Below, one piece after another: positions 77 through 18,104 of a stretch of DNA of 36,950 nucleotides (the stretch's first letter is position 1; each line of letters opens with the position of its first letter). The notes below the pieces were generated by a model that was not told the origin of the DNA, ran no database searches, and saw nothing but the letters and a program-made list of their open reading frames with translations. The position numbers were made by a program, and so were the translations under genes. The stretch lies in assembly GCA_046760505.1 (NCBI GenBank), contig JBHIEG010000020.1, forward strand, positions 1 through 36,950, in the 5' to 3' direction. The DNA is from Candidatus Hydrothermarchaeota archaeon. Lineage in GTDB: Archaea; CAYFZR01.

Positions 77-469
77 ATGAGAAAAGAATACATCTCAAAC
101 GTTTTATTGTTCGTAATTTTAGTGAGCGTGGTAAATGGAATACCCCTGTACATGAAGGAAATTCCTGCTTCTCTTAAGAAGTGTACTGTTTGTCACATTC
201 AGTCATCAGGCATAGGTGGCTTGAACAACTTCGGTTTTGATTTTGCAAAAAATAATTTTTCTCTCTCGAGAATAGAAAAATTAGACTCAGATCACGATGG
301 ATTCAGCAATTATGATGAGCTCAATGCAGGTACCTATCCTGGAGATCCGAATTCCTATCCAGGAATTCATGAAAACGAAAGGAGGTCTGTGTCCAGCTTT
401 ACATCATTCCTTGCTGTATTGATAATTCTTATTCTCATCTTCACGCTTTACCTCAGATCCAAATCTTAA
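77..469 (+). CDS. Small membrane-anchored monoheme c-type cytochrome with Ca-binding (TSP3-like) motif
   Basis: Signal peptide, CTVCH heme-attachment motif, LDSDHDGFSNYDELNAGTYPGDP repeat, C-terminal TM helix; adjacent to ccm genes. Confidence 0.75.
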   Translation: MRKEYISNVLLFVILVSVVNGIPLYMKEIPASLKKCTVCHIQSSGIGGLNNFGFDFAKNNFSLSRIEKLDSDHDGFSNYDELNAGTYPGDPNSYPGIHENERRSVSSFTSFLAVLIILILIFTLYLRSKS

Positions 470-972
470 TTATTTTTCTTTCTAATAACCTTGAACTTTT
501 CATATTCCTTTTCAAACAATTTCTCGTATTTTTCATGTAGAGATTTTTTTTCTAGCTTTTCACTTTCTAATTTAATGAAGTCTTCCTCACTCATCTCCAA
601 AACTTCATCAGGATCTGTATACCAAGTTACACTCTCTCTTCTTTTGCTTAATACGTATATTATGCTCGCCCCTACTATGAGCCCGATCAACGGATAAGTC
701 CATAAGGCAAGATTGAATCCTTTTTTTGGGGGAGTTGCAAGAATCTGCCTACCGTAAGTTTCCTGAAGAGTTTTTATTATCTCTTCTCTGGTCATTCCTT
801 TGCTTATCATATCTTGAATCTCACCAACCAGATAAGCCTTGGTTTCGCATTCGCAATTAGCAAGAAGCATGTTGCAGCCGCACGGACAGTAGACGTCTTT
901 GGAGATATCCTCCACGGTTAATGCCAAAGCTGGCACGATTAGGAAAAATATTGGAATGATATTTCTTAACAT
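466..972 (-). CDS. ccmH: CcmH-like cytochrome c maturation protein
   Basis: Signal peptide, CPCGC...CEC motif, GMTREEI...YG..ILATPPKKGFNLALW typical of CcmH, TM helix; directly downstream of ccmF. Confidence 0.85.
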   Translation of the reverse strand: MLRNIIPIFFLIVPALALTVEDISKDVYCPCGCNMLLANCECETKAYLVGEIQDMISKGMTREEIIKTLQETYGRQILATPPKKGFNLALWTYPLIGLIVGASIIYVLSKRRESVTWYTDPDEVLEMSEEDFIKLESEKLEKKSLHEKYEKLFEKEYEKFKVIRKKNN

Positions 973-974
973 GT

Positions 975-2879
975 TCAGCTCTCCACAAATCTTTTAGGTA
1001 TCAGAGCAACAATAATGCCTAAGCTCATCAAAACTCCCCCAATCCAGATTAGGGAAATTAATGGGAGGAACCTTACCACAAAAGATGCTCCCTCACCACT
1101 TATCCCTTCAAGGATTACGTATATGTCCTTTGTTAACGTAGAAACTATATCTGGACTGAAGTTATACTGTTTTGGAGTTAGAAACTCTGAGTAGGTTGGT
1201 TTTGCCTTTCCGATTAGTTTTTCATTCTCACGGATCTCTAACTCCACGGTCCAGACCATCTTGTTTGCGTGATGCTCAAAATTGTTGTCGACAAATACAA
1301 ACGTATGTTTGCCTATCCTTGTTTGCTCTCCCATCCCTAGGGAAAAACTGTGTTTTTCCTCATAGAGAGTTGAGAATGCAATTCCTGTAATAATCAAAAA
1401 TATTGAGAAGTGAACGAGGTAACCTCCGTATTTTCTTCTCCTCTTAACTATTAGCCTAAAGATGGACGAGCTTTCATCGTGTTTTTTAAATCTCCTATAG
1501 TCTTGGTAAAACTCTTGGAAGTGTGCTATGGCGGAGAAGAAGACGAAATAAGTTGCTAATATTACATAAGGTTCAAAATAACCCATAAACAATAGGAGCA
1601 TGACGGGTATCAGAGATGCAAGAAGAGGATACCTGAACATTTCTTTAAAATTTTCAAGAGAAAACCTTCTCCACGGAGTAAGAACGCAGAAACCTACGAG
1701 GATTAAGAGAAGTATTCCTATGGGCGCCTGAATCTGATTGTAGAACTCAGGTCCAACGCTGACTTGCACACCCTTGATCCATTCAGAAATCAGTGGAAAT
1801 ATGGTCCCCCAGAATATGGTAAGAGCAGAGACAACAAACAAGAGATTATTGACCAAGAAAGTGGTTTCTTTTGAAAAAGCTGATTCAAATATGTCTTTGC
1901 TCCTTATTTGATCATACTTCATTGCAATAACTCCTAGAGAGAAAATTAACATTGAAAGCATGTATGCCATGAAGTAAGGACCAATGTTCGAACCTGCGAA
2001 GGCATGAACAGAGGACAATACCCCGCTTCTTGTGAGAAAAGTTCCGAAGATTACAAACTCAAATGTCAATAAAATTAACAAAATATTCCAGAGTTTCATA
2101 CCTCTTTTGGTCTCTTGAATCATTACACTATGTAAAAAAGCGGTACTAGTAAGCCAAGGAAGCAAAGACGCATTTTCCACAGGGTCCCATGCCCAGTAAC
2201 CTCCCCAGCCAAGAATTACATATGCCCACCATCCGCCAAGTATAATCCCTAATCCAAGAAATAGCCATGAGAATAGGGTCCATTTCCTAACCCTATAAAT
2301 CCAACCCTCGTTATTCGTCAGGACTCCAGATATGGCAAAAGCAAATGGTATCGCGAGACCTGCATAACCTATGAATAAAGTCGGTGGATGGAAAGCCATG
2401 CCAATGTTTTGAAGGAGTGGATTTAGTCCTTGACCGTCTATTGGAACGAAATCAAGTCTTTTGAAAGGATTTAGAGATCCTATTAAAATGAACAGGAAGA
2501 AAGATTCTACCGACATCAGGATGGCAAGCGAATAATGAGTTAAGGTATCTTTTTTTTCTTTAAAGAGTACCCCAACTGAAAATATAGAGAGGAACCATGA
2601 CCAGAGCAAAAGAGATCCTGGAGAGCCAGCCCAGAACGCACTCACTGTATAAAATAATGGTAAATTCCTATCCGTATGCATCGCAACATATTCCACCTGA
2701 AAGTCCCGAGTAACCAAATAGTAAAGCAATATCACGGAAGATATGGTAACGAATGAAAAAGTCCCTATCAGGGCATACCTTCCGAAATTAACCAGATTTT
2801 TTCTATCAGACGAGAATGAAACTACCGAGAACATCGAGCAGATCAAAGCCAATAAGAGAGAAATGTATCCTATGTCCAT
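975..2879 (-). CDS. ccmF: Heme lyase CcmF/NrfE, full length
   Basis: WGGYWAWDPVENASLLPWL (WWD domain), LNPLLQ..MAFHPP, TRSGVLSSVHAF, many TM helices. Confidence 0.97.
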   Translation of the reverse strand: MDIGYISLLLALICSMFSVVSFSSDRKNLVNFGRYALIGTFSFVTISSVILLYYLVTRDFQVEYVAMHTDRNLPLFYTVSAFWAGSPGSLLLWSWFLSIFSVGVLFKEKKDTLTHYSLAILMSVESFFLFILIGSLNPFKRLDFVPIDGQGLNPLLQNIGMAFHPPTLFIGYAGLAIPFAFAISGVLTNNEGWIYRVRKWTLFSWLFLGLGIILGGWWAYVILGWGGYWAWDPVENASLLPWLTSTAFLHSVMIQETKRGMKLWNILLILLTFEFVIFGTFLTRSGVLSSVHAFAGSNIGPYFMAYMLSMLIFSLGVIAMKYDQIRSKDIFESAFSKETTFLVNNLLFVVSALTIFWGTIFPLISEWIKGVQVSVGPEFYNQIQAPIGILLLILVGFCVLTPWRRFSLENFKEMFRYPLLASLIPVMLLLFMGYFEPYVILATYFVFFSAIAHFQEFYQDYRRFKKHDESSSIFRLIVKRRRKYGGYLVHFSIFLIITGIAFSTLYEEKHSFSLGMGEQTRIGKHTFVFVDNNFEHHANKMVWTVELEIRENEKLIGKAKPTYSEFLTPKQYNFSPDIVSTLTKDIYVILEGISGEGASFVVRFLPLISLIWIGGVLMSLGIIVALIPKRFVES

Positions 2880-3971
2880 TTAATCTCCTTCCTCCTCCTT
2901 GGTCATTTTTTCGATCTTTTTTAGGATCTCCGATACCTCTTCCTCGTATTTAGATTTTAGCTCTTCATAATCCTCTTCACTTATCCTACCTTCTTTATAG
3001 TCTTTTTCAAGTGCATTCAGAACCGCAAATGCCGCTTCTTTCTTTGCGATCAAGTCCTCTGCTGAGGAAGTTCTAAATTTTATGCTGAAAAATCCAGCCA
3101 TAAGAATTATAAATAAGATTAGGCCCTCACCAATCCAGATCCATTTTTTTGGTAAAGTAGAGAATCCAGAAAGAACTAAGGCGACGCTTTCTCCTTTTTT
3201 GAGATTTAGTGATTCGAATGAAGAATACTGCTTGTTTTCGAAAGTTAATTCCCCCCTCCTTATCAGATTTTCCGCATTTTTTGATGAAATACTGTTCTTT
3301 TCAATTAAGAGCATTAAAAAGTTAGTTTTATAATTTAACTTTCTCTCAAATTTATAATCTTTATTTTGCGGGATTAACTCGTAGTAAAAATCAATCTGAT
3401 ACGTTTCGTTTGGTTTAATCGCTTGCATGGGGTCGAATGTAAAACCTTCCTCTTCCTTGATTATGCAGCACTCCATTATAGATGTTCTAAAGTTTAAATA
3501 TTCCGGAGGTAGATTAACCCGGAGTTCGTTTCCATTGTAAGCCTTATTTCCCTCATTCCTGAATACGACTATTTCCTTTACCTTAATTTTATTTTCTTCT
3601 GGTTGAACGACAATGTGATGTATGTTTACGATGATGTCGTTTGCGCTTCTAGTGGTATCGAAAACTCTGAATTTTACCTTTTGTTCCCTGCTTTTTAGAT
3701 CTACAGGCATTAGGTAGGGTATACTTTTGAATTTTAGTAGTATATAATACTTCTCTCCGATTTTTAAGTTATCAAATGAAAATGAACTTGTATTAACGGT
3801 TTTATTTTCCAGATATTTATGATTAGAATCCATCAGACTAGCATTTATATAAGAGGATTTGTCATAACCCTCTACTTCAACAAAAATACTTCCATTTTCA
3901 ATTTCTTGAGAAACAGATGGAAAAACCAAGATAAAAGTCAGGAAGAAAATTAATGAAAAGATCTTCTTCAC
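2880..3971 (-). CDS. Exported beta-rich protein with C-terminal TM helix and CcmI/SHOCT-like tail
   Basis: Likely GTG start at 3971 after GAGGG (ORF extends to 4010); signal peptide, vicinal CC, TM, tail LEKDYKEGRISEEDYEELKSKYE resembling the CcmI motif. Confidence 0.6.
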   Translation of the reverse strand: MKKIFSLIFFLTFILVFPSVSQEIENGSIFVEVEGYDKSSYINASLMDSNHKYLENKTVNTSSFSFDNLKIGEKYYILLKFKSIPYLMPVDLKSREQKVKFRVFDTTRSANDIIVNIHHIVVQPEENKIKVKEIVVFRNEGNKAYNGNELRVNLPPEYLNFRTSIMECCIIKEEEGFTFDPMQAIKPNETYQIDFYYELIPQNKDYKFERKLNYKTNFLMLLIEKNSISSKNAENLIRRGELTFENKQYSSFESLNLKKGESVALVLSGFSTLPKKWIWIGEGLILFIILMAGFFSIKFRTSSAEDLIAKKEAAFAVLNALEKDYKEGRISEEDYEELKSKYEEEVSEILKKIEKMTKEEEGD

Positions 3972-4010
3972 GAATATCCCTCTTTTTCTATCATAGGTTA
4001 TCAGCACCAA

Positions 4011-5075
4011 TTACAAGTACCCAACTATGATCACTACGCCTAAGGCTATCATGAATAGCCCATTTATTAACTTTATCGTTGGTCGCTTTTTCTCCCTGAA
4101 TTCGTCTAACGTAAGAGGATTAAGACCCATAGTTATCGCAAGAGACAGGAAGAATATTGGTGTGACTTTTGCTACATTGTACAACAATAAATAGGATAAT
4201 CCACTTGCAAAATCATGCTGAAGCCAGATAAGATTCAATATACCCAGGTATATGCCGGTTACACAAGGTAGCTTCACTAAAGAGAAAATTAATCCAAGAG
4301 AAAAGCTCGAAAACATTGTGTTTTTTGATGCAAGATTATGGATAACATTTTTTACATTATCCGGCGTCTTAAAAAGTCTGCTTTCCTTTATTGAATAATC
4401 CTTAATGAATAAAATTCCAAAGACTATCGGGATTAAGCCAGCAATTATCTTAGCGACACCTGAATATCTGGGTATAAAATCTAATATGCTCAGTATAAGT
4501 AGTCCTTTAAGGAAGAAAAAGGAAAATACGCCTAAACCAAAGGCTGAGAGTATTACAAAGATTCTTTTTCTATCGGTTACCAGAGCAAGTATCAATCCGC
4601 TTAAAAAAGCCACTACTGCTAGGCAGCATGGTTGTAAACCCGCTAAAAAACCTGCTGAGACAACTAAATAAGGTGTAAGGTCTTTCCTTCCCTTTTTAAT
4701 AACCGTTACATTCTCATTTGAGTAATATTCCACTTTTTCTGCTATTAAATTCTCCAATTCTTTTTCTGAAAGATCTTTTATATTTACACTATCCTTCTCA
4801 TTGAAAACAAGGGATGGTGGATCTAAATTAAGTTCTTCTATTCTTTTAAAATTCTCAATCTCATAAACGCTCTTTTTCTCATATAAAACCGTATTATTGT
4901 ATTTTCTTATGATTTTATCGATGATTTCTCCCTTCTTTTCGCATACCGGGCACCCTTCGATGTGAAAAAACTCAATCTTTACCTTTTTTGTATCTTCATT
5001 AATTCCATACGAAGGTACAAGCCAAAATGAGATGGTGAAAATTAATAAAATGATTAAAGGCTTGAGTGCACTCAT
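4011..5075 (-). CDS. Thioredoxin/glutaredoxin-like domain fused to CcdA/DsbD transmembrane domain
   Basis: Likely ATG at 5075; signal peptide, FHIEGCPVC, then GFLAGLQPCC and VKLPCVTGIY TM cysteines. Confidence 0.85.
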   Translation of the reverse strand: MSALKPLIILLIFTISFWLVPSYGINEDTKKVKIEFFHIEGCPVCEKKGEIIDKIIRKYNNTVLYEKKSVYEIENFKRIEELNLDPPSLVFNEKDSVNIKDLSEKELENLIAEKVEYYSNENVTVIKKGRKDLTPYLVVSAGFLAGLQPCCLAVVAFLSGLILALVTDRKRIFVILSAFGLGVFSFFFLKGLLILSILDFIPRYSGVAKIIAGLIPIVFGILFIKDYSIKESRLFKTPDNVKNVIHNLASKNTMFSSFSLGLIFSLVKLPCVTGIYLGILNLIWLQHDFASGLSYLLLYNVAKVTPIFFLSLAITMGLNPLTLDEFREKKRPTIKLINGLFMIALGVVIIVGYL

Positions 5076-5079
5076 CAAA

Positions 5080-6360
5080 TCACTTTTCTTCTTTTTTGAG
5101 TTTTTTTCTAGCATCATATAGATATATTAATGAGAAAAACAAAGATGCTGAGAGAAAGCCGATTATCAAGTACAAAAATTTATCTTTTTTACTTTCGTTC
5201 GATTCAGGGCTATTGAGTTCTTCTTGTCTCTGTCTTACTTCTTTGTCGTTAAAATTCTTTTTTATTGTATTCTCATTTAAATTATTCCCATTTGAATATT
5301 TGGATAATATTTCTTCCTTTGTTTTGCCTTCCATCAACATCTGGTTTATGTCTGCTTTAAGGAATTGAACCCACTCACAATCACATTCTGAGGATAAACG
5401 CCCGCAACCACATCCACAGGGGATTTTGCTGATGATTTCTTTACTAATTTCTATCTGTTTCTTTCTCAGAGTTTCATTTATACTATAGCGCACCTGTATA
5501 TTGTAGTCTCTAGCCTTCTTTAATCCAAGTAAAGCGGCTGATGTATAATAAGCAGTACCTTTCCAGCTGCCATCGTCCTGTTGTGTATAAAGGAGATATT
5601 TCACCGCCTTCTCTACTGGAGCGGTTTCTCCTAACTCAAGCAACGTAACCATCGTCATGCCGGTACAATGAGGACAGTTTCCCCAGCTTCCATTTGGATT
5701 CTGATCGCTTATAATGTAATTAACTGCTTTTTTTATAGTTTCAGAGTCTCTTGGTTCTCCATATGCTAGCAATGCACGCAGGGCCATGTTGTTGCATTTG
5801 GGACAGTCCTCCCAACTTCCATCCTCTTTTTGATTCCTTTTAAGCCACTCAATCCCTTTTCTGACGTATTCAGTGTCTTTTTCACCCGCCTCTATCAAGG
5901 CAAGGACGGAATTAGCGGTTATTCCTGTTTTAAGACCTTCTTCACCTTCGAAACTTCCGTCTGGATTCTGTTTCGATTTGAGATATTCTATTCCTTTTTT
6001 AACTGCATCAGAATCTTCTTTACCGCTCTTCAATAGAGCCATAAGGACTTGAGCAGTTACAAGAGTGTCGCTCTTTCCCTTAACCTTTGCCCATCCTCCA
6101 TCCTCATTCTGCCTCTTTATAAGACCCTGAGCAGTTTTATTTATCAAATCTTTGGGTTCGAAGTCAAATTCGATCAAAGTCTCTAAAACACTAGCGGTTT
6201 GATCGTTAGGTCCCCAAGTCTCATACAAGTCATAGATCTCTATTTTTGATTTTATGAGCCAATTCATGCCGCGTAATATATTTTGGTCGTATCCAACATC
6301 TTCCGCGAGAGTTAATGAAATAAGCATGAATAAAACAATTGTTGCTGGAATATTCTTCAT
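5080..6360 (-). CDS. Exported prenyltransferase/squalene-cyclase-repeat (alpha/alpha barrel) protein fused to CcmH-like domain and TM anchor
   Basis: QW-type repeats QNEDGGW, QNPDGSF, QKEDGSW, QNPNGSW, QQDDGSW; CPKC and CPHC; C-terminal IPCGCGC...ECDC...GKTKEEI; TM. Confidence 0.75.
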   Translation of the reverse strand: MKNIPATIVLFMLISLTLAEDVGYDQNILRGMNWLIKSKIEIYDLYETWGPNDQTASVLETLIEFDFEPKDLINKTAQGLIKRQNEDGGWAKVKGKSDTLVTAQVLMALLKSGKEDSDAVKKGIEYLKSKQNPDGSFEGEEGLKTGITANSVLALIEAGEKDTEYVRKGIEWLKRNQKEDGSWEDCPKCNNMALRALLAYGEPRDSETIKKAVNYIISDQNPNGSWGNCPHCTGMTMVTLLELGETAPVEKAVKYLLYTQQDDGSWKGTAYYTSAALLGLKKARDYNIQVRYSINETLRKKQIEISKEIISKIPCGCGCGRLSSECDCEWVQFLKADINQMLMEGKTKEEILSKYSNGNNLNENTIKKNFNDKEVRQRQEELNSPESNESKKDKFLYLIIGFLSASLFFSLIYLYDARKKLKKEEK

Positions 6361-6497
6361 TTACTTCCTCCTCAAACGATTCATACACTTTTGAATGTTT
6401 TTGAGTTAAATGATTTATTTTCTCACTAAGTTTAGATTGATTATTTATACTTTTGTTGTATATTTAAATATTTTTTTATTTATGTTAGGTAAATTTT

Positions 6498-7766
6498 TTA
6501 TTTTCTTCGCTTCGCCACATTAAGAAAAATAAAGATAAAAAGAAAAAGAAGAAATAAAATTATTCCCTTTACTATAGAATAAGATCTGCTCTCTACGTTA
6601 AGATCTACCTCATTGGATTCTTGCGTATGTAGTCCATTTTCATCGAAGAATATAATGTTCGCTGGTGGTATTGTGTATTTTTTTGACTTATCGCTTTTTA
6701 TAACATAGCTAAACGTCTCCTTTTGGCCAACTCTTAAAAAAGGAAGGTTTATGATCGTCTCTCCAGAAACCACCTTTACATCTTCGCAAACAGAGTCTAT
6801 GATTCTAATATCTTTTGCATCATCGTTTCCTATATTTTTTATTTCAAGAGTCACTATAACCTCTTCCCCCTCTTTTACCGTATCCTTATTTAGAGACTTT
6901 GAAATAACGATTATTGCCTCTTTCCTCTTGGTTTCAAATTCATCTTCTATTTTTTCATAGGATTCGTTTTTTACTTCAGATTTTATGCTTTCTATACTTA
7001 TAGAAGCCTTATTTGATTTTACTTCGATTACCTCTCCATCGATTTTATACAAGGCGGTTGTTGCGTCGAGAAGTATGTTTCCGGGAGAGTATGTTCTCAT
7101 TTTGTAAAATAATTCAACTCGGTTTCTGGGATACAAATCCAAATTGAAGATTATTTCATTTCCCTCTCTCTTTATTCTAGGCAAGCTCTCGTTAATCAGA
7201 ACATCAAGACCGTTTGGAATTTTATCCTTTATCTCTATGTTCTCAATCTTCCTTTTCCCATTATTCTCTACCTCGAGATAAACAATGAATGTACCATTTT
7301 CAGAGTCCTTTTCAATCCTCTTTTTTATGGTGATATCTGGGATCAATTCTTCCAAACGTTCTATTAAAGTCTCTTTTTCTTGATACCCAATCAATCGACC
7401 CACTTCATTCCCATTTTTATCAAAAAAAATGAAGACAGGAACTCCATAAACTCCAAAATCTTTTGCCAGTTCTTTGTACTCATTTGCGTCCACCGTAATT
7501 ATATTTACAACATCCGCGTATTCCTTCCTGATTTCTTTCATGATTGGAATCATCCTCACACATATGCTGCACGTATCCTTGGAAAAATCAAGCAAAGTGG
7601 GTTTCCCGCTTTTAAGAGCGTTTTCAAAGCTTTCCGGGGTATAATCATAGTAGATTCCGACCGGGCTTATTCTTGCATCTACAACTGGAGAATACAACGA
7701 TATAGAAATAAGGAAGATTACTGCCAATCTGGGCAATAGATCTTTTAATTTTTTTATGCGAAACAT
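6498..7766 (-). CDS. Exported thioredoxin fused to two DUF11/BatD-like Ig domains, C-terminal TM anchor
   Basis: Signal peptide, CSIC, cis-Pro loop GVPVF, ITIKK..VENNG and ISKSL..VTLEIKNIG..IID domains, TM plus basic tail. Confidence 0.8.
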   Translation of the reverse strand: MFRIKKLKDLLPRLAVIFLISISLYSPVVDARISPVGIYYDYTPESFENALKSGKPTLLDFSKDTCSICVRMIPIMKEIRKEYADVVNIITVDANEYKELAKDFGVYGVPVFIFFDKNGNEVGRLIGYQEKETLIERLEELIPDITIKKRIEKDSENGTFIVYLEVENNGKRKIENIEIKDKIPNGLDVLINESLPRIKREGNEIIFNLDLYPRNRVELFYKMRTYSPGNILLDATTALYKIDGEVIEVKSNKASISIESIKSEVKNESYEKIEDEFETKRKEAIIVISKSLNKDTVKEGEEVIVTLEIKNIGNDDAKDIRIIDSVCEDVKVVSGETIINLPFLRVGQKETFSYVIKSDKSKKYTIPPANIIFFDENGLHTQESNEVDLNVESRSYSIVKGIILFLLFLFIFIFLNVAKRRK

Positions 7767-7865
7767 AGCTCAATAACCACCAGAAGGAGTGGTCTACTGG
7801 ATTTAAATAAATTTTCATGTTGACCTTTCGGCGAAAGATACCATAAATAAAATTTTGATTCAGCA

Positions 7866-8600
7866 TTACTCCAGATCGATGCCGAAGAATTTGTAGTAAT
7901 CTGGGATCGAATCATATATTCTTCCTAACTGAGGGAATGCATTGTAGAGATATGGAGATATGGGATGGATTATTGTAAATGCGATTAAAATCAATATTAT
8001 TCCTGAAACTTTGTTTATCCACTCTGCTTTTAAAATGGATTCGGATAATTTAAACTTGGCCTCAGAACTTAATACACTGGCAAGAATTACAGGGATACCG
8101 AAACCTATTGAGTAGATAAATAAAGTAACGCCACCAAAGACCACGTTTCCCTCCGCTGCAATGAGTGCTAAAATACCTGCCAAAACAGGATCAGCACAAG
8201 GATTAACCGCTACACCAAATACTAACCCAAACGAAAAGGCTCCAATGAGACCTTTTTTTCTAGGAGCTGCCTTAGGTCTGAATCTCGAGAAAACATCAGA
8301 CTCTATCTTCACCACATTCAACAGTTTTAGTCCCATCAAAAATGCTATAAAAGCTGCCAAATATCTAAAATAAAACGTGAAGTTTAGAATCTGCCCTAGT
8401 ATAGAGGCAAACACACCCAAGGCTGTAAGGGTAATAGACAAACCGAAAATGAAAGAAACTGCTGTTGAAAACGCCTTTCTCCTGCTATCAGAAACTCCCG
8501 TGACGAATGCGAGAGTAACTGGCAGAACCGTAAAGACACATGGACCCAAGGCTGTAAAAATTCCCGCAAGAAAGGCAAGTGGAACTGATATCTCGACCAT
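7866..8600 (-). CDS. ccdA: CcdA cytochrome c biogenesis / transmembrane reductant conductor
   Basis: AFLAGIFTALGPCVFTVLP and VNPCADPVL motifs, about six TM helices. Confidence 0.92.
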   Translation of the reverse strand: MVEISVPLAFLAGIFTALGPCVFTVLPVTLAFVTGVSDSRRKAFSTAVSFIFGLSITLTALGVFASILGQILNFTFYFRYLAAFIAFLMGLKLLNVVKIESDVFSRFRPKAAPRKKGLIGAFSFGLVFGVAVNPCADPVLAGILALIAAEGNVVFGGVTLFIYSIGFGIPVILASVLSSEAKFKLSESILKAEWINKVSGIILILIAFTIIHPISPYLYNAFPQLGRIYDSIPDYYKFFGIDLE

Positions 8601-8618
8601 TGAAATCGCCTCAAAATT

Positions 8619-9053
8619 TTAAACCAGCTCATCCAACACGTTCTTTATTGTCTCTTTACTTTGATAGCCTACCAAAGTCCTGAATAGTTCCCCCTTTTTA
8701 TTGAAGAATATCAGCGTTGGAAGATTTCTTACTCCGTATTCCTTTACCAGATCTAGCTCGGTGTCGGCATTTACGGTTAAAATATTTGCTTTCCCTCGAT
8801 ATTCTTCCTTGAGTTCCTTCATAAAGGGAGCCATGCGTCTACAAGGTATGCACCAATCTGCGGCAAATTCCAAGAGAGTGGGCATGCCGCTTTTCAGAGC
8901 TTTCTCAAATTTATAGGGAGTGTAATCATATATTATCTTGGGTAAATCTTTTTCAGGTTTATTTTTCGAGGTGCTTCCGCTAACATGAAAAATATATCCT
9001 ATGGCGATTATAGCTGCAACCGCAACCACTATCATCCATTTATTGGGGCGCAT
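8619..9053 (-). CDS. Membrane-anchored thioredoxin (CcmG/ResA-like role)
   Basis: N-terminal TM, FAADWCIPC, NLPTL; coupled to ccdA; likely ATG at 9053 (ORF extends to 9065). Confidence 0.88.
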   Translation of the reverse strand: MRPNKWMIVVAVAAIIAIGYIFHVSGSTSKNKPEKDLPKIIYDYTPYKFEKALKSGMPTLLEFAADWCIPCRRMAPFMKELKEEYRGKANILTVNADTELDLVKEYGVRNLPTLIFFNKKGELFRTLVGYQSKETIKNVLDELV

Positions 9054-9150
9054 TCCATCAACCAAGTAAATTTACGTGGAAATTATATATAAATAATTAA
9101 TCAATGTTTAGATTTTGAGTCTATACATAGTATATAAAATTTATGGAATA

Positions 9151-10452
9151 TTAAAATTGATACCTCGCTGCTAAGGCAACAAAAAATAAAAAGATCAGTA
9201 TTCCAAAAGCTATTATGATCTTAGAGAAAGATAAGGAGCCATATTCAGCTTCAGATTCTTTTGAAACCGATATGGGTATTTCCTCTGTTGATACGAACTT
9301 CTCATCACCCAAGTGTGAGTAAATAAGATTTGCCCTGGGAATATTGTAGTTACCCTCCTTCAATGGTTTTATTATGTAACTATATGTCTTCGACTCCCCT
9401 GTGCCCAGTCTATCTTGAATATATAAATTGCCATAAATGACCTCAAAATTTTTAGGTATGCTATCTACTATTTTAATATCGACATCTCTATCCAATTTGT
9501 TCTCCACCCTTAAAAGCACAACTACCTCTTCGCCAACTGATGGAGTAAAACTTTCTACGGTCTTTGTTATGGTTAAACCTTCTATACTTTTTTCCATGAC
9601 GTTTTTATCTTTAGAGGGTTCTGCGATCTTCTTTTCTCCAAGCAATTTATACGGTGTAGAGGAAGGTAATTCCACACTCAAACCTATTCTATCAAAACTT
9701 ATGTTCAGCAGAGTTACCTTAGCCTTTCCAGCGAGAAACGTCTCCCCGACATTTCTCGGTATGGATAGACTCTCTATTTTCTCACCCATGGAGTAAACTG
9801 CTATGACTGCTCTTTCCATTTTTTTGTCTGTACCAATAAATTCTAACCAGAAGTTTTCATAACTGAATTTCTCGCCTAGAGATAGAAAGCCTTCGTAACT
9901 TCCCTTACTTTGTTTCAATACTACTCCCTTGGGCTCATAAATGGGGGTTAACTCGTATTTAGGTTTGGATTTTTTTATTTCTTTGGGGATCTCTTCAATT
10001 TTTTCTCCCTTTATTAATTTTCTTAGGACAAATTCAATATCCTCTTTCTCCTGATATCCAACCAGAGTTAAAACCTTCCTTCCATATTTATCAAAGAAAG
10101 TAAAGGTGGGAAGATAGCGTTCACCGTACTTCCTCGAAAGTTCAAGTCCCTCTTCAGTATCCACGTTGACGGTAATTATGTCTACCATGCCTTCGTATTC
10201 CGCTCTTAATGCCCTTATGGTTGGAACCATCATCCTACACGCGCCGCATCTGTCTGCAGAGAAATCCACCATCGTGGGCCTTCCATTGTAAAGTTTTGAG
10301 TTAAAGGTCTCCGGAGAATAATCGTAGTATATTCCTGCGGGACTTACATACCCTTCAGAACTTTTAGTTTCTTCGGCAAATAAGGGGTTCAATGAAATTA
10401 TAACTGAAATGAGGTTAATTAAGGTAAATAAAATCAAATGCTTGCGTGTCAT
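9151..10452 (-). CDS. Exported thioredoxin fused to S-layer-like and DUF11/BatD-like domains, C-terminal TM anchor
   Basis: Likely ATG at 10452 (ORF extends to 10506); signal peptide, FSADRCGAC, YLPTF, LTITKTV..VGEEVVVLLRVEN domain, TM. Confidence 0.8.
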   Translation of the reverse strand: MTRKHLILFTLINLISVIISLNPLFAEETKSSEGYVSPAGIYYDYSPETFNSKLYNGRPTMVDFSADRCGACRMMVPTIRALRAEYEGMVDIITVNVDTEEGLELSRKYGERYLPTFTFFDKYGRKVLTLVGYQEKEDIEFVLRKLIKGEKIEEIPKEIKKSKPKYELTPIYEPKGVVLKQSKGSYEGFLSLGEKFSYENFWLEFIGTDKKMERAVIAVYSMGEKIESLSIPRNVGETFLAGKAKVTLLNISFDRIGLSVELPSSTPYKLLGEKKIAEPSKDKNVMEKSIEGLTITKTVESFTPSVGEEVVVLLRVENKLDRDVDIKIVDSIPKNFEVIYGNLYIQDRLGTGESKTYSYIIKPLKEGNYNIPRANLIYSHLGDEKFVSTEEIPISVSKESEAEYGSLSFSKIIIAFGILIFLFFVALAARYQF

Positions 10453-10689
10453 CTTCCATATCATGCAAATTAGAGTGTTAAACCTTCTATTTAAAATGTA
10501 TGCCACAAACTATTCTACCAAACAGTTAAAGATAAAAAAAATCTAGGATCCCAATTTTTTTTATACATAATTCAATTATACAAGACCTAACATATTTTTA
10601 GAATGGAATGACCCTTTTTTCTTCCGTTAATATACCGAAATTTTTTTATACCGTATCTCCTCAAGCACTAACCAAGAGAGGTGTAGTGT
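10453..10689. promoter_or_regulatory. Divergent promoter region between the thioredoxin/ccm cluster and the Fe-S operon
   Basis: AT-rich intergenic gap, TTTTTATA TATA-like box near 10643-10650, GAGGTG RBS before the TTG at 10690. Confidence 0.5.
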
Positions 10690-11244
10690 TTGACAGGTAT
10701 TGAAATGCCTAAATCATTCTTGAGACTTAATGTGGTAGCCTTTAATCTCATTGCTGCTTTCTTAGGAAGTTTGGTTATTACAGCAGCAAGATCAGGACAT
10801 CTCCAATCTCTTATATGTTATGAATGCAGGGCTTGCATGACCGAATGTCCGAGAGGAATAGACCCCACTGGTTTTGAAGTCGCGGCGAGATCTTATAACG
10901 CGAATAGATACCATATTCTAAGAGGTGTTGAACTCACTGTGGAAGAGGCCCTCGCCTTGGATCCAGGCATGAGGGTAAGGGCTAAGTTTGCGGATGGCAC
11001 ATTGGATTCTAATAAATTAACTGTTTCTGATGTAAAGAAAAGAATTGAGAGAAAAGAAAAAGTGATCGTAGACGGTAGAGAGTACAATTACGATGATGTG
11101 AGGGAGGTTTATTCAGAGGAAATGCGTGCAAAGGATGTGGCACAGTTTTGTGTTAGATGTGGTCTCTGCGAGAAAAATTGTCCGGCTTCTCTCCGAATTC
11201 TTGAGATAATAGATGATCTAAGGGTTGATGGTAAGTTCAGGTGA
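10690..11244 (+). CDS. Membrane-anchored 2x[4Fe-4S] protein (HdrC-like dicluster)
   Basis: N-terminal hydrophobic helix; CYECRACMTECP and CVRCGLCEKNCP. Confidence 0.8.
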   Translation: MTGIEMPKSFLRLNVVAFNLIAAFLGSLVITAARSGHLQSLICYECRACMTECPRGIDPTGFEVAARSYNANRYHILRGVELTVEEALALDPGMRVRAKFADGTLDSNKLTVSDVKKRIERKEKVIVDGREYNYDDVREVYSEEMRAKDVAQFCVRCGLCEKNCPASLRILEIIDDLRVDGKFR

Positions 11245-11248
11245 TTCT

Positions 11249-11470
11249 ATGGAGGTAAACAAGCATATAGTTATACTTTTGGTCATTATATTCGTCGGGA
11301 TGATCTTGAACAGAAGCGCAGGGGTAACAGAATCTGATAATTTAAAGGCGCTGAAAGGGGATTTAGTAGAACTTGGAGTGATACCCAAGCCGTATGATCC
11401 AAATCTCACCTATCTAACCACTCCTGAGCTCAATATTTCCCACAGAAGTGAGTCAAAAGAAGGTGGATAG
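11249..11470 (+). CDS. Small membrane-anchored hypothetical protein
   Basis: ATG at 11249 after GGTGA; hydrophobic N-terminus; tightly packed in operon. Confidence 0.65.
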   Translation: MEVNKHIVILLVIIFVGMILNRSAGVTESDNLKALKGDLVELGVIPKPYDPNLTYLTTPELNISHRSESKEGG

Positions 11471-11471
11471 C

Positions 11472-11672
11472 ATGCGAGAAAAAATTTCCGAGAGAGATAT
11501 ATCAAGAAGATCTTTTATAAAAGGAGCAGGAGCATTGGGAGTTCTGTCAATCGTTCCTCTAGCGAGTAAATCAGATTCTAAAGTTATAGAGAATAAAATT
11601 AAGGGAAGTGTAGAATCCATTGATCCCAAACTTAATCATCTCTCAAGACCTAAATTAGAGGTTGTAAAATGA
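11472..11672 (+). CDS. Small twin-arginine (Tat) signal-containing protein
   Basis: ATG at 11472 after GGTGG; SRRSFIK plus hydrophobic stretch; ATGA overlap with next gene. Confidence 0.7.
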   Translation: MREKISERDISRRSFIKGAGALGVLSIVPLASKSDSKVIENKIKGSVESIDPKLNHLSRPKLEVVK

Positions 11673-12250
11673 TCAGGATCTTCGTCGGAAAAGATCTCAG
11701 CGGGAGGTACATCAAAAGAAATAATGTGGATATATTTGTTCCCAGGCTAATGAAGGTCTATGCAATAGATAGGGAAGGCAGGCATGTTGTGAAGGAAAAA
11801 TTCGTGGACAGAGAGGGGTACATAACGCTAAAGGAAAAAGTAGGAGACGAAGCGGAATGGGCACTAAAATACCTGGAAGTGAAAAACGATAAAGTATATC
11901 CTATCCCACCTATCCTAGGGACTACCCAGCAAAGGTTTGAGGAAGGAGTTGATATGTACGAACTTCTCTTAGATGCAAAGAAAAGCGGTAGACCCTATGG
12001 TGTGCAGAAATGCACCTATCCTATCTGCATAGGAAGATGCGTTCAAATATGTCCAACTGACGCGATCACAATGTCAACGGAAGAATTCAGAGAGACAGGA
12101 AAAATATTTCCAAAAATAGATGATAAGAAGTGCATAAAATGCGGGCTATGCATAGAGGCTTGCGGATTCGAGGCGATATATCAAAAGAAAGAGGCTATTA
12201 GAGAGACAACAAGATTTGAGAGAGAATCCTTGGGTGAGGTTAGCAGATGA
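11669..12250 (+). CDS. 4Fe-4S ferredoxin-domain protein with uncharacterised N-terminal domain
   Basis: CTYPICIGRCVQICP and CIKCGLCIEACG. Confidence 0.8.
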   Translation: MIRIFVGKDLSGRYIKRNNVDIFVPRLMKVYAIDREGRHVVKEKFVDREGYITLKEKVGDEAEWALKYLEVKNDKVYPIPPILGTTQQRFEEGVDMYELLLDAKKSGRPYGVQKCTYPICIGRCVQICPTDAITMSTEEFRETGKIFPKIDDKKCIKCGLCIEACGFEAIYQKKEAIRETTRFERESLGEVSR

Positions 12251-12756
12251 AGAAGACATCTTTTGAAGGATTGTCTAGGAGAGGTTTCTTAAGGATAACG
12301 CTTGAAACGGCTACAACGGCAATAATCGCTATGGTTCTTCTAGGAGAACTTGTTGTAAGTCGTGAAAATGCTCCATCTGTAATCAATGAGAAAAACGAGA
12401 CTGTTAAAGCAAAATTCATCGAATTCAAAGGTGAGCCAAAATTAGCACCTCCCGGAGCAATAGATGATTTTCTCTCTACGTGCGCAAGATGCGGTATCTG
12501 CGTTGAGGTCTGTCCGGTTGGTGTGCTAAGTCTTTATGATGTAGGTTACCCCATACTAACAAAAAAAGAAGAATGCATCTCATGGGTTAAGGAGAAGGAG
12601 CACTTCGAGTTAGAAAAATGCGGTCTCTGTGTGGCAAACTGCCCCACCGGGGCTCTGAGAGGTAAACGCGATTACCAATTTAAGTGGGTTCAATCCAAAT
12701 TACCTGCAAAACCCAAAAGATGGGTGGTTGGTCCCCGGAAAGGGACTAAAGAATAG
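12247..12756 (+). CDS. Tat-exported NapG/MauM/NapF-like ferredoxin
   Basis: SRRGFLR Tat motif, PPGA motif, CARCGICVEVCP, C...CGLCVANCPTGAL. Confidence 0.82.
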   Translation: MKKTSFEGLSRRGFLRITLETATTAIIAMVLLGELVVSRENAPSVINEKNETVKAKFIEFKGEPKLAPPGAIDDFLSTCARCGICVEVCPVGVLSLYDVGYPILTKKEECISWVKEKEHFELEKCGLCVANCPTGALRGKRDYQFKWVQSKLPAKPKRWVVGPRKGTKE

Positions 12757-16229: not shown

Positions 16230-16985
16230 TCATTGGTAGATCCTCTCATCTCCAGTATATACATACATTTTCCTGCCCCTCAAAAAGCAGATCAATGTAA
16301 TTCCAACTTCCCTCGCGACATCTATGCTTGGGTTTATTGGGGCAGAACGAGATCCAATTATTGGAATATTTGCATTTGCCACCTTTAATATCATACTAGC
16401 AGGAATTCGACCGCTACATAAAAGGAAGGTATTTAAAAAGTCAACTTTTTTAAGAGTTGAAATTCCTATTACCTTGTCTATGACTGCGTGTCTGCTGATA
16501 TCCTCTGCAATAGCAATTTCTTTACCATTTTTATCAAATATGCCTGCGGCATGGGTTCCGTGAGTAAGTTTCCAAATCCTTGAGTGCTTCTGTAGTTTTT
16601 TCATCGCATCGTATAACGTATTTGTCCCTACCCTCAAGTCTGAATTGACATAAATATCTTGGTTCAACAATCTGACTACCCAACCCTGCACACATTCTTC
16701 CATCCTAATTATTTCCAATTTATTTTCATCAAAATCCGGTATTTTCACCTCTATTGCATCTTCCATTATCTCTATATCTTCTATATCATCTGAGTCTTTT
16801 ATCATACCGGATCCAATGAGATAACCTATAGCGAGTTCTTTTAGCAAATTGGGAGATGTAGAAAAAACACCTATCTTTTTGCCATTTGCAAATATTCTAA
16901 TTTGTTCTTCATCTACCACGAAGGTATCATCTCTCGATATAAAACCGGACAAATCTATTTTTTTTGCATTAACCCTTTTATACAT
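16230..16985 (-). CDS. fdhD: Formate dehydrogenase accessory sulfurtransferase FdhD
   Basis: THGTHAAG, EDISRHAVIDKVIG, SGRI, SAP, TLICFLRG. Confidence 0.92.
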   Translation of the reverse strand: MYKRVNAKKIDLSGFISRDDTFVVDEEQIRIFANGKKIGVFSTSPNLLKELAIGYLIGSGMIKDSDDIEDIEIMEDAIEVKIPDFDENKLEIIRMEECVQGWVVRLLNQDIYVNSDLRVGTNTLYDAMKKLQKHSRIWKLTHGTHAAGIFDKNGKEIAIAEDISRHAVIDKVIGISTLKKVDFLNTFLLCSGRIPASMILKVANANIPIIGSRSAPINPSIDVAREVGITLICFLRGRKMYVYTGDERIYQ

Positions 16986-17054
16986 TTTGATCCCGAATCA
17001 AACTTCATGAGGTAGGTTAAAGGTATTGTATTATTATATGGCTCATTATATAGA

Positions 17055-18104
17055 TCAAACAGGATTATACATACACATAGGATCTTCTTGAAGGAAATCT
17101 CCAGTATATGCGTAGGCTCTGGCTCTACATCCCACACATACATTTCTGTACTTGCACAACCCACACTTGCCCTTTAGTGCGCCTTCTCTTAACGTTTTTA
17201 AAACCGAAGATTCATTCCATATTCTGGTAAATTCTAACTCTCTTACATTTCCTAACTTTATGGGCATGTAAGGACACGGATGTACGTCTCCCTCTGGAAG
17301 GATGCAACAGTATGCGGTTCCCGCCAAGCATCCCCTGGAAAGTCTTTCCAAATCTTCTCTTCCTAGGTCTCTTTTTTCTTTCTCCGCTTTTACTTTTCTT
17401 AGGCTTTTCTTTCCTTTCTGGAGCATTATTCTAAAGTACTGCGGGGCGCAGGTTGTTTTTAAAAACATGTCTGTTTCCTCTTGTCTCTCATACAGATAGG
17501 ATAGCAAGGACTCATATTCCTCGGGGGAAATATCTTTGTCCTTTATGGTTATTCCTCTCCCTGTAGGTACAAAGAAGAAAAGGTGATAGGCATCTGCTCC
17601 TAAATCCAAGGCTAGATCTATTATCTGTGGAATTTCGCTGTAGTTGTACTTTGTTACGGTAGTGTGTATCTGAAACGATAACCCAATCTTTTTGCATGCT
17701 TCTGCGCCTTTTAAAGCCTTTTCAAATGCTCCATCAACCCCTCTAAAATTGTCATGAACTTTAGGATTTGTAGAGTCTATGCTTATGCCTACTCTCTTTG
17801 TTCCCGCATCGTAAAGCCTAGACGCTACCTCATCATCTATCAAAGTTCCGTTCGTTCCTAAAACAACCCTAAATCCTAGATCAGATCCGTATCTAATGAT
17901 ATCGTATAAATCAGATCTTACAAGAGGCTCTCCACCGCTCAAAATTAGAATTGGTTTTGAGAGGCTTGATATATTCTCCATGAGAGAGTAAACTTCTTGA
18001 GTAGAGAGTTCATTCTTTCCTTTTTTACCTGCATCTCTGTAACAGTGGCTGCATCTTAGGTTGCAGGCCCTTGTCACGTTCCAGGAAATTAGACGCGGTT
18101 TCAT
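17055..18104 (-). CDS. ahbD: Radical SAM/SPASM protein, AhbD/NirJ2-like (alternative heme b synthesis)
   Basis: SWNVTRACNLRCSHCYRDAG, FFFVPTGRG, TCAPQYFRI, GCLAG..YC, SPASM cysteines; likely ATG at 18104. Confidence 0.78.
   Translation of the reverse strand: MKPRLISWNVTRACNLRCSHCYRDAGKKGKNELSTQEVYSLMENISSLSKPILILSGGEPLVRSDLYDIIRYGSDLGFRVVLGTNGTLIDDEVASRLYDAGTKRVGISIDSTNPKVHDNFRGVDGAFEKALKGAEACKKIGLSFQIHTTVTKYNYSEIPQIIDLALDLGADAYHLFFFVPTGRGITIKDKDISPEEYESLLSYLYERQEETDMFLKTTCAPQYFRIMLQKGKKSLRKVKAEKEKRDLGREDLERLSRGCLAGTAYCCILPEGDVHPCPYMPIKLGNVRELEFTRIWNESSVLKTLREGALKGKCGLCKYRNVCVGCRARAYAYTGDFLQEDPMCMYNPV

What the first reader, a model, noticed from the sequence alone, without database searches (positions are those of the whole stretch)
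77..12756. Expanded extracytoplasmic thiol-redox and cytochrome c maturation locus facing an orphan Fe-S export operon
Seen: nine co-oriented minus-strand genes (Trx-stalk, Trx, CcdA, Trx-stalk, barrel-CcmH fusion, Trx-CcdA, CC-containing CcmI-tailed protein, CcmF, CcmH). All but CcmF carry exported or TM cysteine motifs (CGAC, CIPC, CSIC, CPVC, CPKC, CPHC, two CxCGC..CxC, CC). They are flanked by a monoheme cytochrome and a divergent Tat/Fe-S operon. Established: CcdA/DsbD passes cytoplasmic electrons to exported thioredoxins, and characterised archaeal System I is usually reduced to CcmABCEF. Inference: four thioredoxin domains, two CcdA modules and two CcmH domains exceed what heme attachment needs, so this may be an undescribed cell-surface dithiol/disulfide electron relay tied to cytochrome maturation.
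Basis: partly seen in the sequence, partly recalled or inferred. Interest (0 to 1): 0.8.

Follow-up and report, generated by a model that had tools for sequence, protein, structure and literature searches.

The report
Archaeal haem-attachment locus with extra thiol-redox genes
An uncultured hydrothermal-vent archaeon rich in multi-haem cytochromes keeps its haem-attaching enzyme, two unusual CcmH helpers and a set of membrane-tethered thiol reducers in one gene block; most parts are known kinds, but two of the proteins have domain combinations found nowhere else in the collections searched.

Summary
Nine co-oriented minus-strand genes (466-10506) carry the stated domains and cysteine motifs, and a congeneric genome keeps them in the same order.

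The core, CcmF plus two CcmH-like domains lacking LRCxxC, beside a small monohaem cytochrome, is the module already reported in print for Geoglobus and Ferroglobus. Two CcmH domains are therefore normal for it.

- **CcmH motif:** CxCxC-x6-CxC marks a large, mostly bacterial CcmH subfamily.
- **The "CC/CcmI-tailed" protein:** it is homologous end to end to uncharacterised proteins encoded after ccmFH in bacteria. Its CC pair is not conserved.
- **The Trx-CcdA fusion:** this architecture is common in archaea.

Two features are special to this genus:
- an exported (alpha/alpha)6 toroid with two CPxC motifs, fused to CcmH2;
- thioredoxins mounted on DUF11/CARDB-type stalks with a C-terminal anchor.

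The genome also holds ccmABCE (CxxxY CcmE), a split archaeal-type CcmF and a third CcmF-like gene, so this looks like a second, self-sufficient late-stage module.

Best reading: it reduces apocytochrome thiols and ligates haem for about 110 CxxCH sites. No expression data exist. Other windows of this scan noted related accessory genes in bacterial ccm operons and a CcmF-Trx-CcdA block in Methanoperedens.

The parts
77..469 (+). Monohaem cytochrome c (130 aa): signal peptide, CTVCH, TSP3-like Asp-rich repeat, C-terminal TM helix. Convergent with ccmH1.
   Evidence: Homologues at 40-48% identity sit directly upstream of CcmH2-CcmF-CcmH1 in 3 of 4 loci of archaeal family f11 and in G001.
466..972 (-). 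CcmH1 (168 aa): signal peptide, CcmH domain with CPCGC-x6-CEC in place of LRCxxC, TM helix, charged tail.
   Evidence: PF03918 at 67 bits. A subfamily profile matches solved CcmH 2kw0 (6e-8) and 2hl7 (5e-6). The five Cys are invariant or nearly so across 44 sequences.
975..2879 (-). Unsplit CcmF/NrfE-type haem lyase (634 aa).
   Evidence: PF01578 plus PF16327. The WGGYWAWDPVEN motif and four invariant His (164, 250, 292, 490) are present in a 42-sequence alignment. It groups with f11 archaeal CcmF in a quick tree.
2880..4010 (-). ccm-linked accessory protein: signal peptide, beta-rich ectodomain, TM helix, helical cytoplasmic tail. The database record starts at residue 14 of this ORF, that is near 3971.
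   Evidence: No Pfam or NCBIfam family. Homologous end to end to ORFs downstream of ccmFH in bacteria. The CC pair is conserved in 3 of 19 members.
4011..5117 (-). Fusion of an exported Grx/Trx-like CPVC domain with a CcdA-type membrane core (368 aa).
   Evidence: Near full-length matches occur in many archaeal genomes. A paralogue lies on contig C4.
5080..6360 (-). Exported (alpha/alpha)6 toroid with CPKC and CPHC at the N-termini of two successive helices, fused to a CcmH-like domain (CcmH2, CGCGC-x6-CDC) and a TM anchor.
   Evidence: AF2 mean pLDDT 84. Foldseek top matches are class II terpene cyclases and C3d/TED domains. The CPxC motifs are absent from 33 toroid homologues. The fusion is found only in G000 and G001.
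6498..7766 (-). Thioredoxin (CSIC) on a DUF11/CARDB/BatD-type stalk with a C-terminal TM anchor (422 aa).
   Evidence: No listed match outside the genus spans both thioredoxin and stalk among 401 archaeal genomes.
7866..8600 (-). CcdA (244 aa), with one Cys each at 21 and 135 in hydrophobic segments.
   Evidence: PF02683 at 91 bits.
8619..9065 (-). N-terminally anchored thioredoxin (WCIPC, 148 aa), a CcmG/ResA-like candidate.
   Evidence: PF00085 at 78 bits.
9151..10506 (-). Second thioredoxin (CGAC) on a BatD-type stalk with a C-terminal TM anchor (451 aa).
10690..12756 (+). Divergently transcribed neighbour operon: a TM-anchored 2x[4Fe-4S] protein, a small TM protein, a 74-aa Tat-signal ORF, a signal-less 2x[4Fe-4S] protein and a Tat-signal NapG-like ferredoxin. 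No functional link to the ccm block is shown.
   Evidence: Conserved in G001.

Best explanation
The block is a consolidated late-stage cytochrome c maturation locus of the variant System I kind. Its parts and proposed roles are as follows.

- **Holocytochrome synthase.** This is an unsplit CcmF with two membrane-anchored CcmH-like domains, CcmH1 and CcmH2, that carry CxCxC-x6-CxC instead of LRCxxC. The CcmH2-CcmF-CcmH1 arrangement is the one seen in Geoglobus/Ferroglobus-type archaea.
- **Accessory protein.** A beta-rich, single-pass membrane protein that travels with ccmFH in bacteria probably takes the apocytochrome-handling place of CcmI.
- **Two reductant routes.** CcdA244 feeds the anchored thioredoxin and the two stalked thioredoxins. 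The Trx-CcdA fusion is a self-contained second route.

Together these would keep the CxxCH cysteines of secreted apocytochromes, and probably the CcmH and toroid cysteines, reduced outside the membrane until CcmF ligates haem delivered by the CxxxY-type CcmE encoded elsewhere.

**Shown:** domain identities, paralogy, synteny in a congener, homology of the parts to ccm-linked genes elsewhere, and the cytochrome load of the genome.

**Inferred:** the direction of electron flow, the substrates, the physical CcmF/H1/H2/accessory complex, and co-transcription.
For: **Domains and motifs:**

**CcmF looks catalytically complete:** the WWD motif and four invariant His are present.

**CcmH membership:** PF03918 and a profile match to solved CcmH 2kw0 and 2hl7.

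**Operon structure:** the five downstream genes abut or overlap (gaps -38, 0, 0 and 2 nt for the longest ORFs). This fits one operon running toroid-CcmH2, Trx-CcdA, accessory, CcmF, CcmH1.

**Conservation of the core**
- The whole block is syntenic in G001 at 65-90% identity.
- The same CcmH2-CcmF-CcmH1 core occurs in 4 of 9 f11 genomes, with the small cytochrome in 3 of those 4.
- CcmF of both archaeal groups falls on one side of a split with SH-aLRT 100 (quick tree, 42 rows).

**The accessory protein is ccm-linked**
- An HMM finds full or near-full homologues after ccmFH in 17 of 80 bacterial CcmF loci; 2 of the 17 were seeds of the HMM.
- Its TM-plus-tail part alone matches a small ORF just after ccmH in 37 loci.

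**Demand and the rest of the pathway**
- 15 ORFs have at least 2 CxxCH motifs, 110 motifs in all.
- ccmA, ccmB, ccmC and a CxxxY ccmE lie on contig C18.

**Established knowledge:** the CcdA/DsbD to CcmG to CcmH to apocytochrome route, and CcmFH as the synthase (PMC9084895 and PMC12285233, passages read).
Against: - **No expression data.** No RNA run holds the stretch. Gaps of 137, 99 and 85 nt with AT-rich TATA-like stretches allow several transcription units.
- **The redox motif is missing.** The CcmH domains lack the LRCxxC motif on which the thiol-redox role of CcmH rests. Their five cysteines, and the toroid's two CPxC, could equally bind a metal.
- **The reducing branch may be dispensable.** In Methanosarcina, ccmG and ccdA were dispensable under reducing laboratory conditions (PMC9084895), so a large reducing branch is not obviously needed.
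- **Redundancy.** The genome has a second, split CcmF and a third CcmF-like gene, so which cytochromes this module serves is unknown.
- **Dispersed paralogues.** Thioredoxin paralogues of the same kind lie outside the locus, on C7 and C32.
- **Thin sampling.** Only one related genome exists in the collections, so conservation of the full nine-gene arrangement rests on two congeners.
Confidence: 0.6

Rival explanations
1. The thioredoxin and CcdA genes form a general envelope thiol-reductase, isomerase or oxidative-damage repair system, in the manner of bacterial DsbD/ScsB/TlpA networks. On this reading they serve many surface proteins and merely lie next to the haem lyase genes.
For: - The four upstream genes are separated from the ccm operon by a 137-nt AT-rich gap and from each other by 18-99 nt.
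- Close paralogues lie at unrelated loci: a stalked thioredoxin on C7, an anchored thioredoxin on C32 and a Trx-CcdA fusion on C4.
- The f11 archaea keep CcmH2-CcmF-CcmH1 with no tblastn match (E <= 1e-3) to this window's thioredoxin or CcdA proteins within about 9 kb.
- The Trx-CcdA fusion is widespread in archaea, including lineages in which the CcmH family was not found.
Against: - The Trx-CcdA fusion sits inside the tightly packed ccm operon, between CcmH2 and the accessory gene.
- All nine genes are co-oriented, and their order is kept in G001.
- ccmG-ccdA adjacency to ccm functions is the norm in System I (PMC9084895).
Confidence: 0.2
2. The locus would be a new cell-surface dithiol/disulfide electron relay that carries respiratory or extracellular electrons, possibly fed by the divergent Tat/Fe-S operon, and would not simply maintain cysteines.
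For: - Thioredoxins on roughly 250-aa stalks, and a toroid with two CPxC motifs, are unique to this genus in what was searched.
- An exported-ferredoxin operon shares the promoter region.
- An earlier, unchecked scan note reports CcmF with two thioredoxins, CcdA and an Fe-S membrane protein in Methanoperedens.
Against: - No catalytic oxidoreductase subunit or terminal reductase is encoded nearby.
- Every part except the two fusions has a counterpart in ordinary cytochrome maturation.
- Thiol-disulfide cascades move two electrons slowly and are not known as respiratory conduits (general knowledge).
- The Fe-S link is adjacency only, seen in two congeners.
Confidence: 0.07
3. This is a rival for one step only. 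The CxCxC-x6-CxC clusters of CcmH1/H2, and the paired CPxC of the toroid, would be metal sites (zinc, iron or an Fe-S centre) with a structural or haem/iron-handling role. These proteins would then take no part in thiol-disulfide exchange.
For: - Five cysteines are invariant or nearly so in 44 sequences.
- 132 of the 150 best representatives carry the motif.
- The canonical CxxC spacing is lost.
- CPxC pairs are typical metal knuckles (my own knowledge, not tested).
Against: - The first cysteine aligns with the first cysteine of LRCxxC in solved CcmH.
- Each CPxC sits at a helix N-terminus, as in redox-active thioredoxin-fold sites.
- I could not read model coordinates, so the geometry of the four toroid cysteines is unknown.
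Confidence: 0.3

Closest known systems
CcmH-CcmF-CcmH cluster of Geoglobus ahangari, G. acetivorans and Ferroglobus placidus (PMC4600277; also noted for ANME-2d in PMC9012536)
   Same: - An extra, unsplit CcmF is flanked by two CcmH-like proteins that lack LRCxxC and carry a Cys-rich motif, in a cytochrome-rich archaeon that also has a CxxxY CcmE.
- The small CTxCH cytochrome gene is also shared.
   Different: - Here CcmH2 is fused to an exported toroid with two CPxC motifs and is separated from CcmF by a Trx-CcdA gene and a bacterial-type accessory gene.
- Four thioredoxin/CcdA genes lie upstream, and the cytochrome gene is inverted.
- No tblastn match to this window's thioredoxin or CcdA proteins (E <= 1e-3) lay within about 9 kb in the four f11 loci.
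Bacterial System I thio-reduction and ligation branch (DsbD/CcdA, CcmG, CcmH, CcmF, CcmI)
   Same: It has a CcdA-type membrane thiol transporter, membrane-anchored exported thioredoxins, a CcmH-family domain and a CcmF with WWD and four His.
   Different: - CcmH lacks LRCxxC.
- There is no TPR CcmI; a beta-rich accessory stands in its gene position.
- CcmE is of the CxxxY type and is encoded on another contig.
- The thioredoxins sit on DUF11-type stalks.
Streamlined archaeal CcmABCEF of Methanosarcina acetivorans (PMC9084895)
   Same: - It is an archaeal System I.
- The genome also has a split CcmF pair and adjacent thiol genes.
   Different: That system has no CcmH and works without CcmG/CcdA in the laboratory. 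This locus adds an unsplit CcmF, two CcmH-like domains and an accessory.
NrfEFG, the dedicated haem lyase of E. coli
   Same: - It is a second CcmF-family lyase with its own CcmH-like partner beside a general system.
- The best NCBIfam hits are NrfE and NrfF, below their cut-offs.
   Different: No CxxCK site occurs in any of the 15 multihaem ORFs, and there is no TPR NrfG.
Class II terpene cyclase / thioester-domain (alpha/alpha)6 toroids
   Same: The fold of residues about 50-290 of the 426-aa protein matches (Foldseek probability 1.00, TM about 0.5). Pfam detects SQHop_cyclase and Prenyltrans repeats.
   Different: - It is exported and is a single toroid.
- It has no DxDD or CGEQ motif.
- It has two CPxC motifs not seen in 33 homologues.
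- It is fused to CcmH.

Membership tests
CcmF/NrfE haem lyase | Cytochrom_C_asm plus CcmF_C domains, the WWD motif and four conserved histidines | tested here: met
   PF01578 at 119 bits and PF16327 at 167 bits. WGGYWAWDPVEN and H164, H250, H292, H490 are invariant in 42 sequences.
CcmH (PF03918) | Family HMM over its cut-off and homology to solved CcmH | tested here: met
   CcmH168 scores 67 bits against a cut-off of 25. The subfamily profile matches 2kw0 at 6e-8 and 2hl7 at 5e-6. The toroid protein's C-terminal domain is reached only through paralogy (E 1.9e-11), not by Pfam.
CcmH (PF03918) | Redox-active LRCxxC motif | tested here: not met
   Both domains have CxCxC-x6-CxC instead.
System I* (Allen et al. 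2006, as cited in PMC4600277 and PMC9084895; the original paper was not read) | CcmE with CxxxY in place of HxxxY | tested here: met
   The CcmE on contig C18 ends ...VKCPTKYEK.
System I* (Allen et al. 2006) | No CcmH | tested here: not met
   Two CcmH-like domains are present.
CcdA / DsbD_TM | DsbD_TM domain with one cysteine in each half of the membrane core | tested here: met
   CcdA244: PF02683 at 91 bits, Cys21 and Cys135. The fusion protein scores 27.3 bits against a cut-off of 27.1 and has Cys164/165 and Cys285.
Thioredoxin (CcmG/ResA-like, exported) | Thioredoxin fold with CxxC, preceded by a signal or anchor | tested here: met
   PF00085 at 56-78 bits for the three proteins. Each has an N-terminal hydrophobic segment. 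Equivalence to CcmG specifically was not tested.
CcmI / CycH | TPR domain and the TIGR03142 N-terminal module | tested here: not met
   No Pfam or NCBIfam hit at E <= 0.01 for the 376-aa protein, nor for the small ORF after ccmH in locus L048.
ccmFH-linked beta-rich accessory family (unnamed) | End-to-end homology and a position next to ccmFH | tested here: met
   BLASTP gives 3e-22 and 4e-17 over nearly the full length. The HMM hits 17 of 80 bacterial loci, all downstream of ccmF-ccmH.
Class II terpene cyclase | DxDD catalytic motif | tested here: not met
   No D.DD pattern in the sequence. Only the fold is shared.

The most novel reading that the evidence does not exclude
The toroid-CcmH2 fusion and the stalked thioredoxins together would form a previously unseen extracytoplasmic apocytochrome-handling device. 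On this reading, an (alpha/alpha)6 ring with a four-cysteine redox or metal site holds or threads the unfolded multihaem apoprotein at the CcmF/H synthase, taking over CcmI's chaperone role. Thioredoxins held many nanometres from the membrane keep long, multi-CxxCH chains reduced across the S-layer space.
Probability: 0.15. Interest if true: 0.7.

Novelty: new variant of a known kind. Interest (0 to 1): 0.45.

Why it matters
How archaea mature c-type cytochromes without CcmH and CcmI is an open question. The question matters because multihaem cytochromes carry extracellular electron transfer in methane-oxidising and iron-reducing archaea.

This locus shows a deep-branching, cytochrome-rich archaeon with several notable features:
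- a CcmH-bearing synthase;
- a candidate non-TPR substitute for CcmI that it shares with many bacteria;
- its own reductant supply.

The large CcmH subfamily with CxCxC-x6-CxC in place of LRCxxC has, as far as my searches show, only been remarked on in one genome paper. What those cysteines do is directly testable. If they bind a metal, the accepted thiol-redox role of CcmH would not hold for a large share of System I organisms.

Tried and rejected
**Complex prediction.** CcmF (42-row alignment) with the 376-aa accessory (18-row alignment) gave a score of 0.01, verdict 'no answer'. This is not evidence either way.

**Structure of the 376-aa protein.** With a 2-row alignment the mean pLDDT was 47. 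Only a beta-sandwich at about residues 26-102 and the C-terminal helices are usable, so no fold search was run on it.

**Sequencing runs.** No RNA holder is listed. Four DNA runs of one hydrothermal-vent study hold the stretch, and three may be its source.

**Word-indexed homology searches**
- The 376-aa protein returned only itself and the G001 copy.
- CcmH168 returned 3 proteins.
- Both searches are limited by the word index. The exhaustive search for CcmH168 found 2569 representatives.

**Metagenome scan with the toroid-CcmH alignment.** The best 80 of 374 confirmed stretches match only the toroid, at 38% identity or less and never beyond query residue 322.

**Protein Atlas.** For the stalked thioredoxin, no cluster scored above 0.82 by features. 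For the 376-aa protein, the look-alikes are unnamed bacterial clusters.

**PDB by sequence.** Nothing was found for the small cytochrome (best E 0.55) or for CcmH168 alone.

**Other items**
- One Pfam call was wasted on a 50-residue fragment.
- The careful phylogeny did not finish; only the quick tree is reported.
- An NrfA-like CxxCK target was considered and rejected: none occurs in the 15 multihaem ORFs.
- The sigma-70 promoter scan was not used, because the organism is an archaeon.

Full report
**What is there**

The window is contig C20 of a 2.17-Mb archaeal assembly with no McrA hit. The rest of the window carries archaeal markers: AglB/STT3, Nre and a DnaG-type Toprim protein. Only one congeneric genome, G001, is held. 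All other 'relatives' offered are related only at domain level. An earlier scan note calls the organism Hydrothermarchaeota-related; I did not test that.

- CcmH (PF03918, 67 bits);
- an unsplit 634-aa CcmF;
- a 376-aa protein with no family;
- a CPVC domain fused to a CcdA-type core;
- a 426-aa protein with squalene-cyclase/prenyltransferase repeats;
- thioredoxin plus DUF11/CARDB;
- CcdA;
- thioredoxin;
- thioredoxin plus BatD.

Every cysteine motif listed is present and is kept in G001 where I looked. The whole block is syntenic in G001 at 65-90% amino-acid identity. The five downstream genes abut or overlap (gaps -38, 0, 0 and 2 nt). The four upstream genes are separated by 137, 99, 18 and 85 nt of AT-rich DNA.

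**The genome has the rest of System I, and more than one lyase**

- ccmA, ccmB, ccmC and ccmE lie on contig C18. CcmE ends in CPTKY, the CxxxY variant.
- Contig C14 holds a split, archaeal-style CcmF: a 323-aa Cytochrom_C_asm protein and a 334-aa CcmF_C protein.
- Contig C2 holds a third Cytochrom_C_asm protein, next to 4-, 4- and 7-haem cytochromes.
- Fifteen ORFs carry two or more CxxCH motifs, 110 motifs in all, and none carries CxxCK.

The window therefore holds a second, separate late-stage module rather than the organism's only one.

**The core is a known archaeal module**

PF03918 passes its cut-off in 6 of 401 archaeal genomes sampled: G000, G001 and 4 of 9 genomes of one family, f11. 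In those four, CcmF (39-46% identical to the window's; 43-46% in three, 39% in G379's) is flanked by two CcmH-like genes with CxCGC...CxC. In 3 of the 4 it is preceded by a 121-127-aa CTLCH cytochrome that is 40-48% identical to the window's 130-aa cytochrome.

This matches what the Geoglobus ahangari genome paper reports for Geoglobus and Ferroglobus: two CcmH lacking LRCXXC, flanking a duplicate CcmF (PMC4600277, passage read). Chadwick et al. mention similar CcmH homologues in ANME-2d (PMC9012536, passage read).

The statement that CcmH is universally absent from archaea (PMC9084895, passages read) therefore already had published exceptions. Two CcmH domains are not an excess here.

In a quick maximum-likelihood tree of 42 CcmF sequences, the five archaeal rows form one split with SH-aLRT 100. 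The 42 were hand-picked from 83 candidate ORFs and G379's copy was left out. The careful search did not finish.

**The CcmH type is a large bacterial subfamily**

- The best 80 CcmF relatives kept from genome contigs are all bacterial by record title, at 37-49% identity (best segment; 37-43% for 79 of them, 49% for one partial match).
- 55 of the 80 have a CcmH directly downstream. Of those, 46 carry CxCxC, 8 carry CxxC and 1 carries neither.
- An exhaustive search with CcmH168 found 2569 representatives at E <= 0.001. Among the best 150, 132 have the CxCxC...C pattern, 4 have CxxC and 14 have neither.
- In 44 aligned members, C29, C31, C33 and C40 are invariant and C42 is nearly so.
- A profile of these members matches the solved CcmH domains 2kw0 and 2hl7, with the first cysteine aligned to the first cysteine of LRCxxC.

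My two literature searches for this motif variant found it discussed only in the Geoglobus paper. Closed journals were not searched.

**The 376-aa protein is a ccm accessory, not a redox part**

It aligns end to end with two ORFs encoded after ccmF-ccmH in two bacterial MAGs:
- a 414-aa ORF (E 3e-22);
- a 610-aa ORF that carries two cytochrome c domains at its N-terminus (E 4e-17).

An HMM built from four members finds full or near-full homologues after ccmH in 17 of the 80 bacterial loci; two of the 17 were seeds. Its TM-plus-tail part alone matches a small ORF just after ccmH in 37 loci.

The CC pair is kept in 3 of 19 members, and the HH pair is only partly kept. No TPR or CcmI model matches. 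Other windows of this scan reached the same view of these bacterial genes.

I read this protein as a probable stand-in for CcmI. This is an inference from gene position only; the complex prediction gave no answer.

**What is peculiar to this genus**

*The toroid-CcmH2 fusion*
- The 426-aa protein models well (mean pLDDT 84) as a signal peptide, an (alpha/alpha)6 toroid, a CcmH-like helical domain and a TM helix.
- Its best structural matches are class II terpene cyclases and C3d/TED domains, but it has no DxDD or CGEQ motif.
- CPKC and CPHC each sit at the N-terminus of successive helices. The aligned positions hold no cysteine in the 33 toroid homologues.
- Among the 120 best of 923 hits, only the G000 and G001 proteins cover the whole query, and none of the others lists PF03918.
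- The metagenome scan found only toroid-only matches.

*The stalked thioredoxins*
- Among 401 archaeal genomes, no listed match outside the genus spans both the thioredoxin and the stalk. 150 rows were listed and 43 were not shown.
- The genome holds a third copy on C7 and a stalk-only paralogue on C19.

*Not unusual*
- The Trx-CcdA fusion has near full-length matches in many archaeal genomes.

**How it most likely works**

Electrons from the cytoplasm would cross through CcdA244 to the anchored and stalked thioredoxins, and in parallel through the Trx-CcdA fusion. A thioredoxin-reductase-like gene lies on C14. These would reduce apocytochrome CxxCH pairs and perhaps the CcmH and toroid cysteines. 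CcmF, with CcmH1, CcmH2 and the accessory protein, would then ligate haem from the CxxxY CcmE.

Only the identities and linkages are shown; the electron flow, the complex and the substrates are inferred. Whether the five-cysteine clusters exchange disulfides or bind a metal is open, and is the most useful thing to test.

The divergent Fe-S/Tat operon is conserved in G001, but nothing ties it to this function.

**Verdict**

This is a real, coherent locus. It is a new variant of a known kind: a published archaeal CcmH-CcmF-CcmH core, a bacterial-type accessory, common reductant modules, and two genus-specific fusions. There is no expression or experimental support.

Noticed in passing
window 11448-12250: A 74-aa ORF that is little more than a twin-arginine signal (ISRRSFIKGAGALG...) overlaps by 4 nt the start of a signal-less 2x[4Fe-4S] protein in another frame. 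This could be a split or frameshifted Tat-exported ferredoxin, or a real two-gene arrangement. The G001 match to the Fe-S part shows two TAA stops inside.
   Followed up: partly
G000 contig C14:5149-10475 (loci L132, L003): A thioredoxin-reductase-like flavoprotein (Pyr_redox_2, 314 aa) lies three genes from the split archaeal-type CcmF pair. Between them are two exported proteins and one membrane protein with no Pfam family.
   Followed up: partly
G000 contig C2:70348-77254 (locus L005): A third CcmF/CcsA-like protein (309 aa, Cytochrom_C_asm at 70 bits) with an adjacent 194-aa protein of no family lies about 3 kb from three cytochromes with 4, 4 and 7 CxxCH motifs. It may be a dedicated lyase for them.
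   Followed up: partly
G000 contig C18 (locus L001:1988-3281): ccmC is called as only 168 aa, against a usual length of about 230-250 aa (my recollection). About 500 bases separate it from ccmB, and the other strand of that gap holds a 127-aa Cys-rich ORF. This may be a mis-called or non-canonical start; an earlier scan note reports ACG starts in this lineage.
   Followed up: no
window 77-469 and loci L114-L116: The small CTxCH cytochrome with a TSP3-like Asp-rich repeat travels with CcmH2-CcmF-CcmH1 in two unrelated archaeal groups. It has no PDB relative by sequence. Its role (substrate, reductant for haem, or part of the machine) is unexplained.
   Followed up: partly
G000 contig C32:2124-3549 (locus L133): Another anchored thioredoxin (CPYC, 144 aa) is convergent with a 334-aa membrane protein that has CPSC and no Pfam family. 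This may be a further thiol-transfer pair.
   Followed up: no
window 16230-18116: FdhD/NarQ and a radical SAM/SPASM maturase lie here with no molybdoenzyme gene in the window.
   Followed up: no
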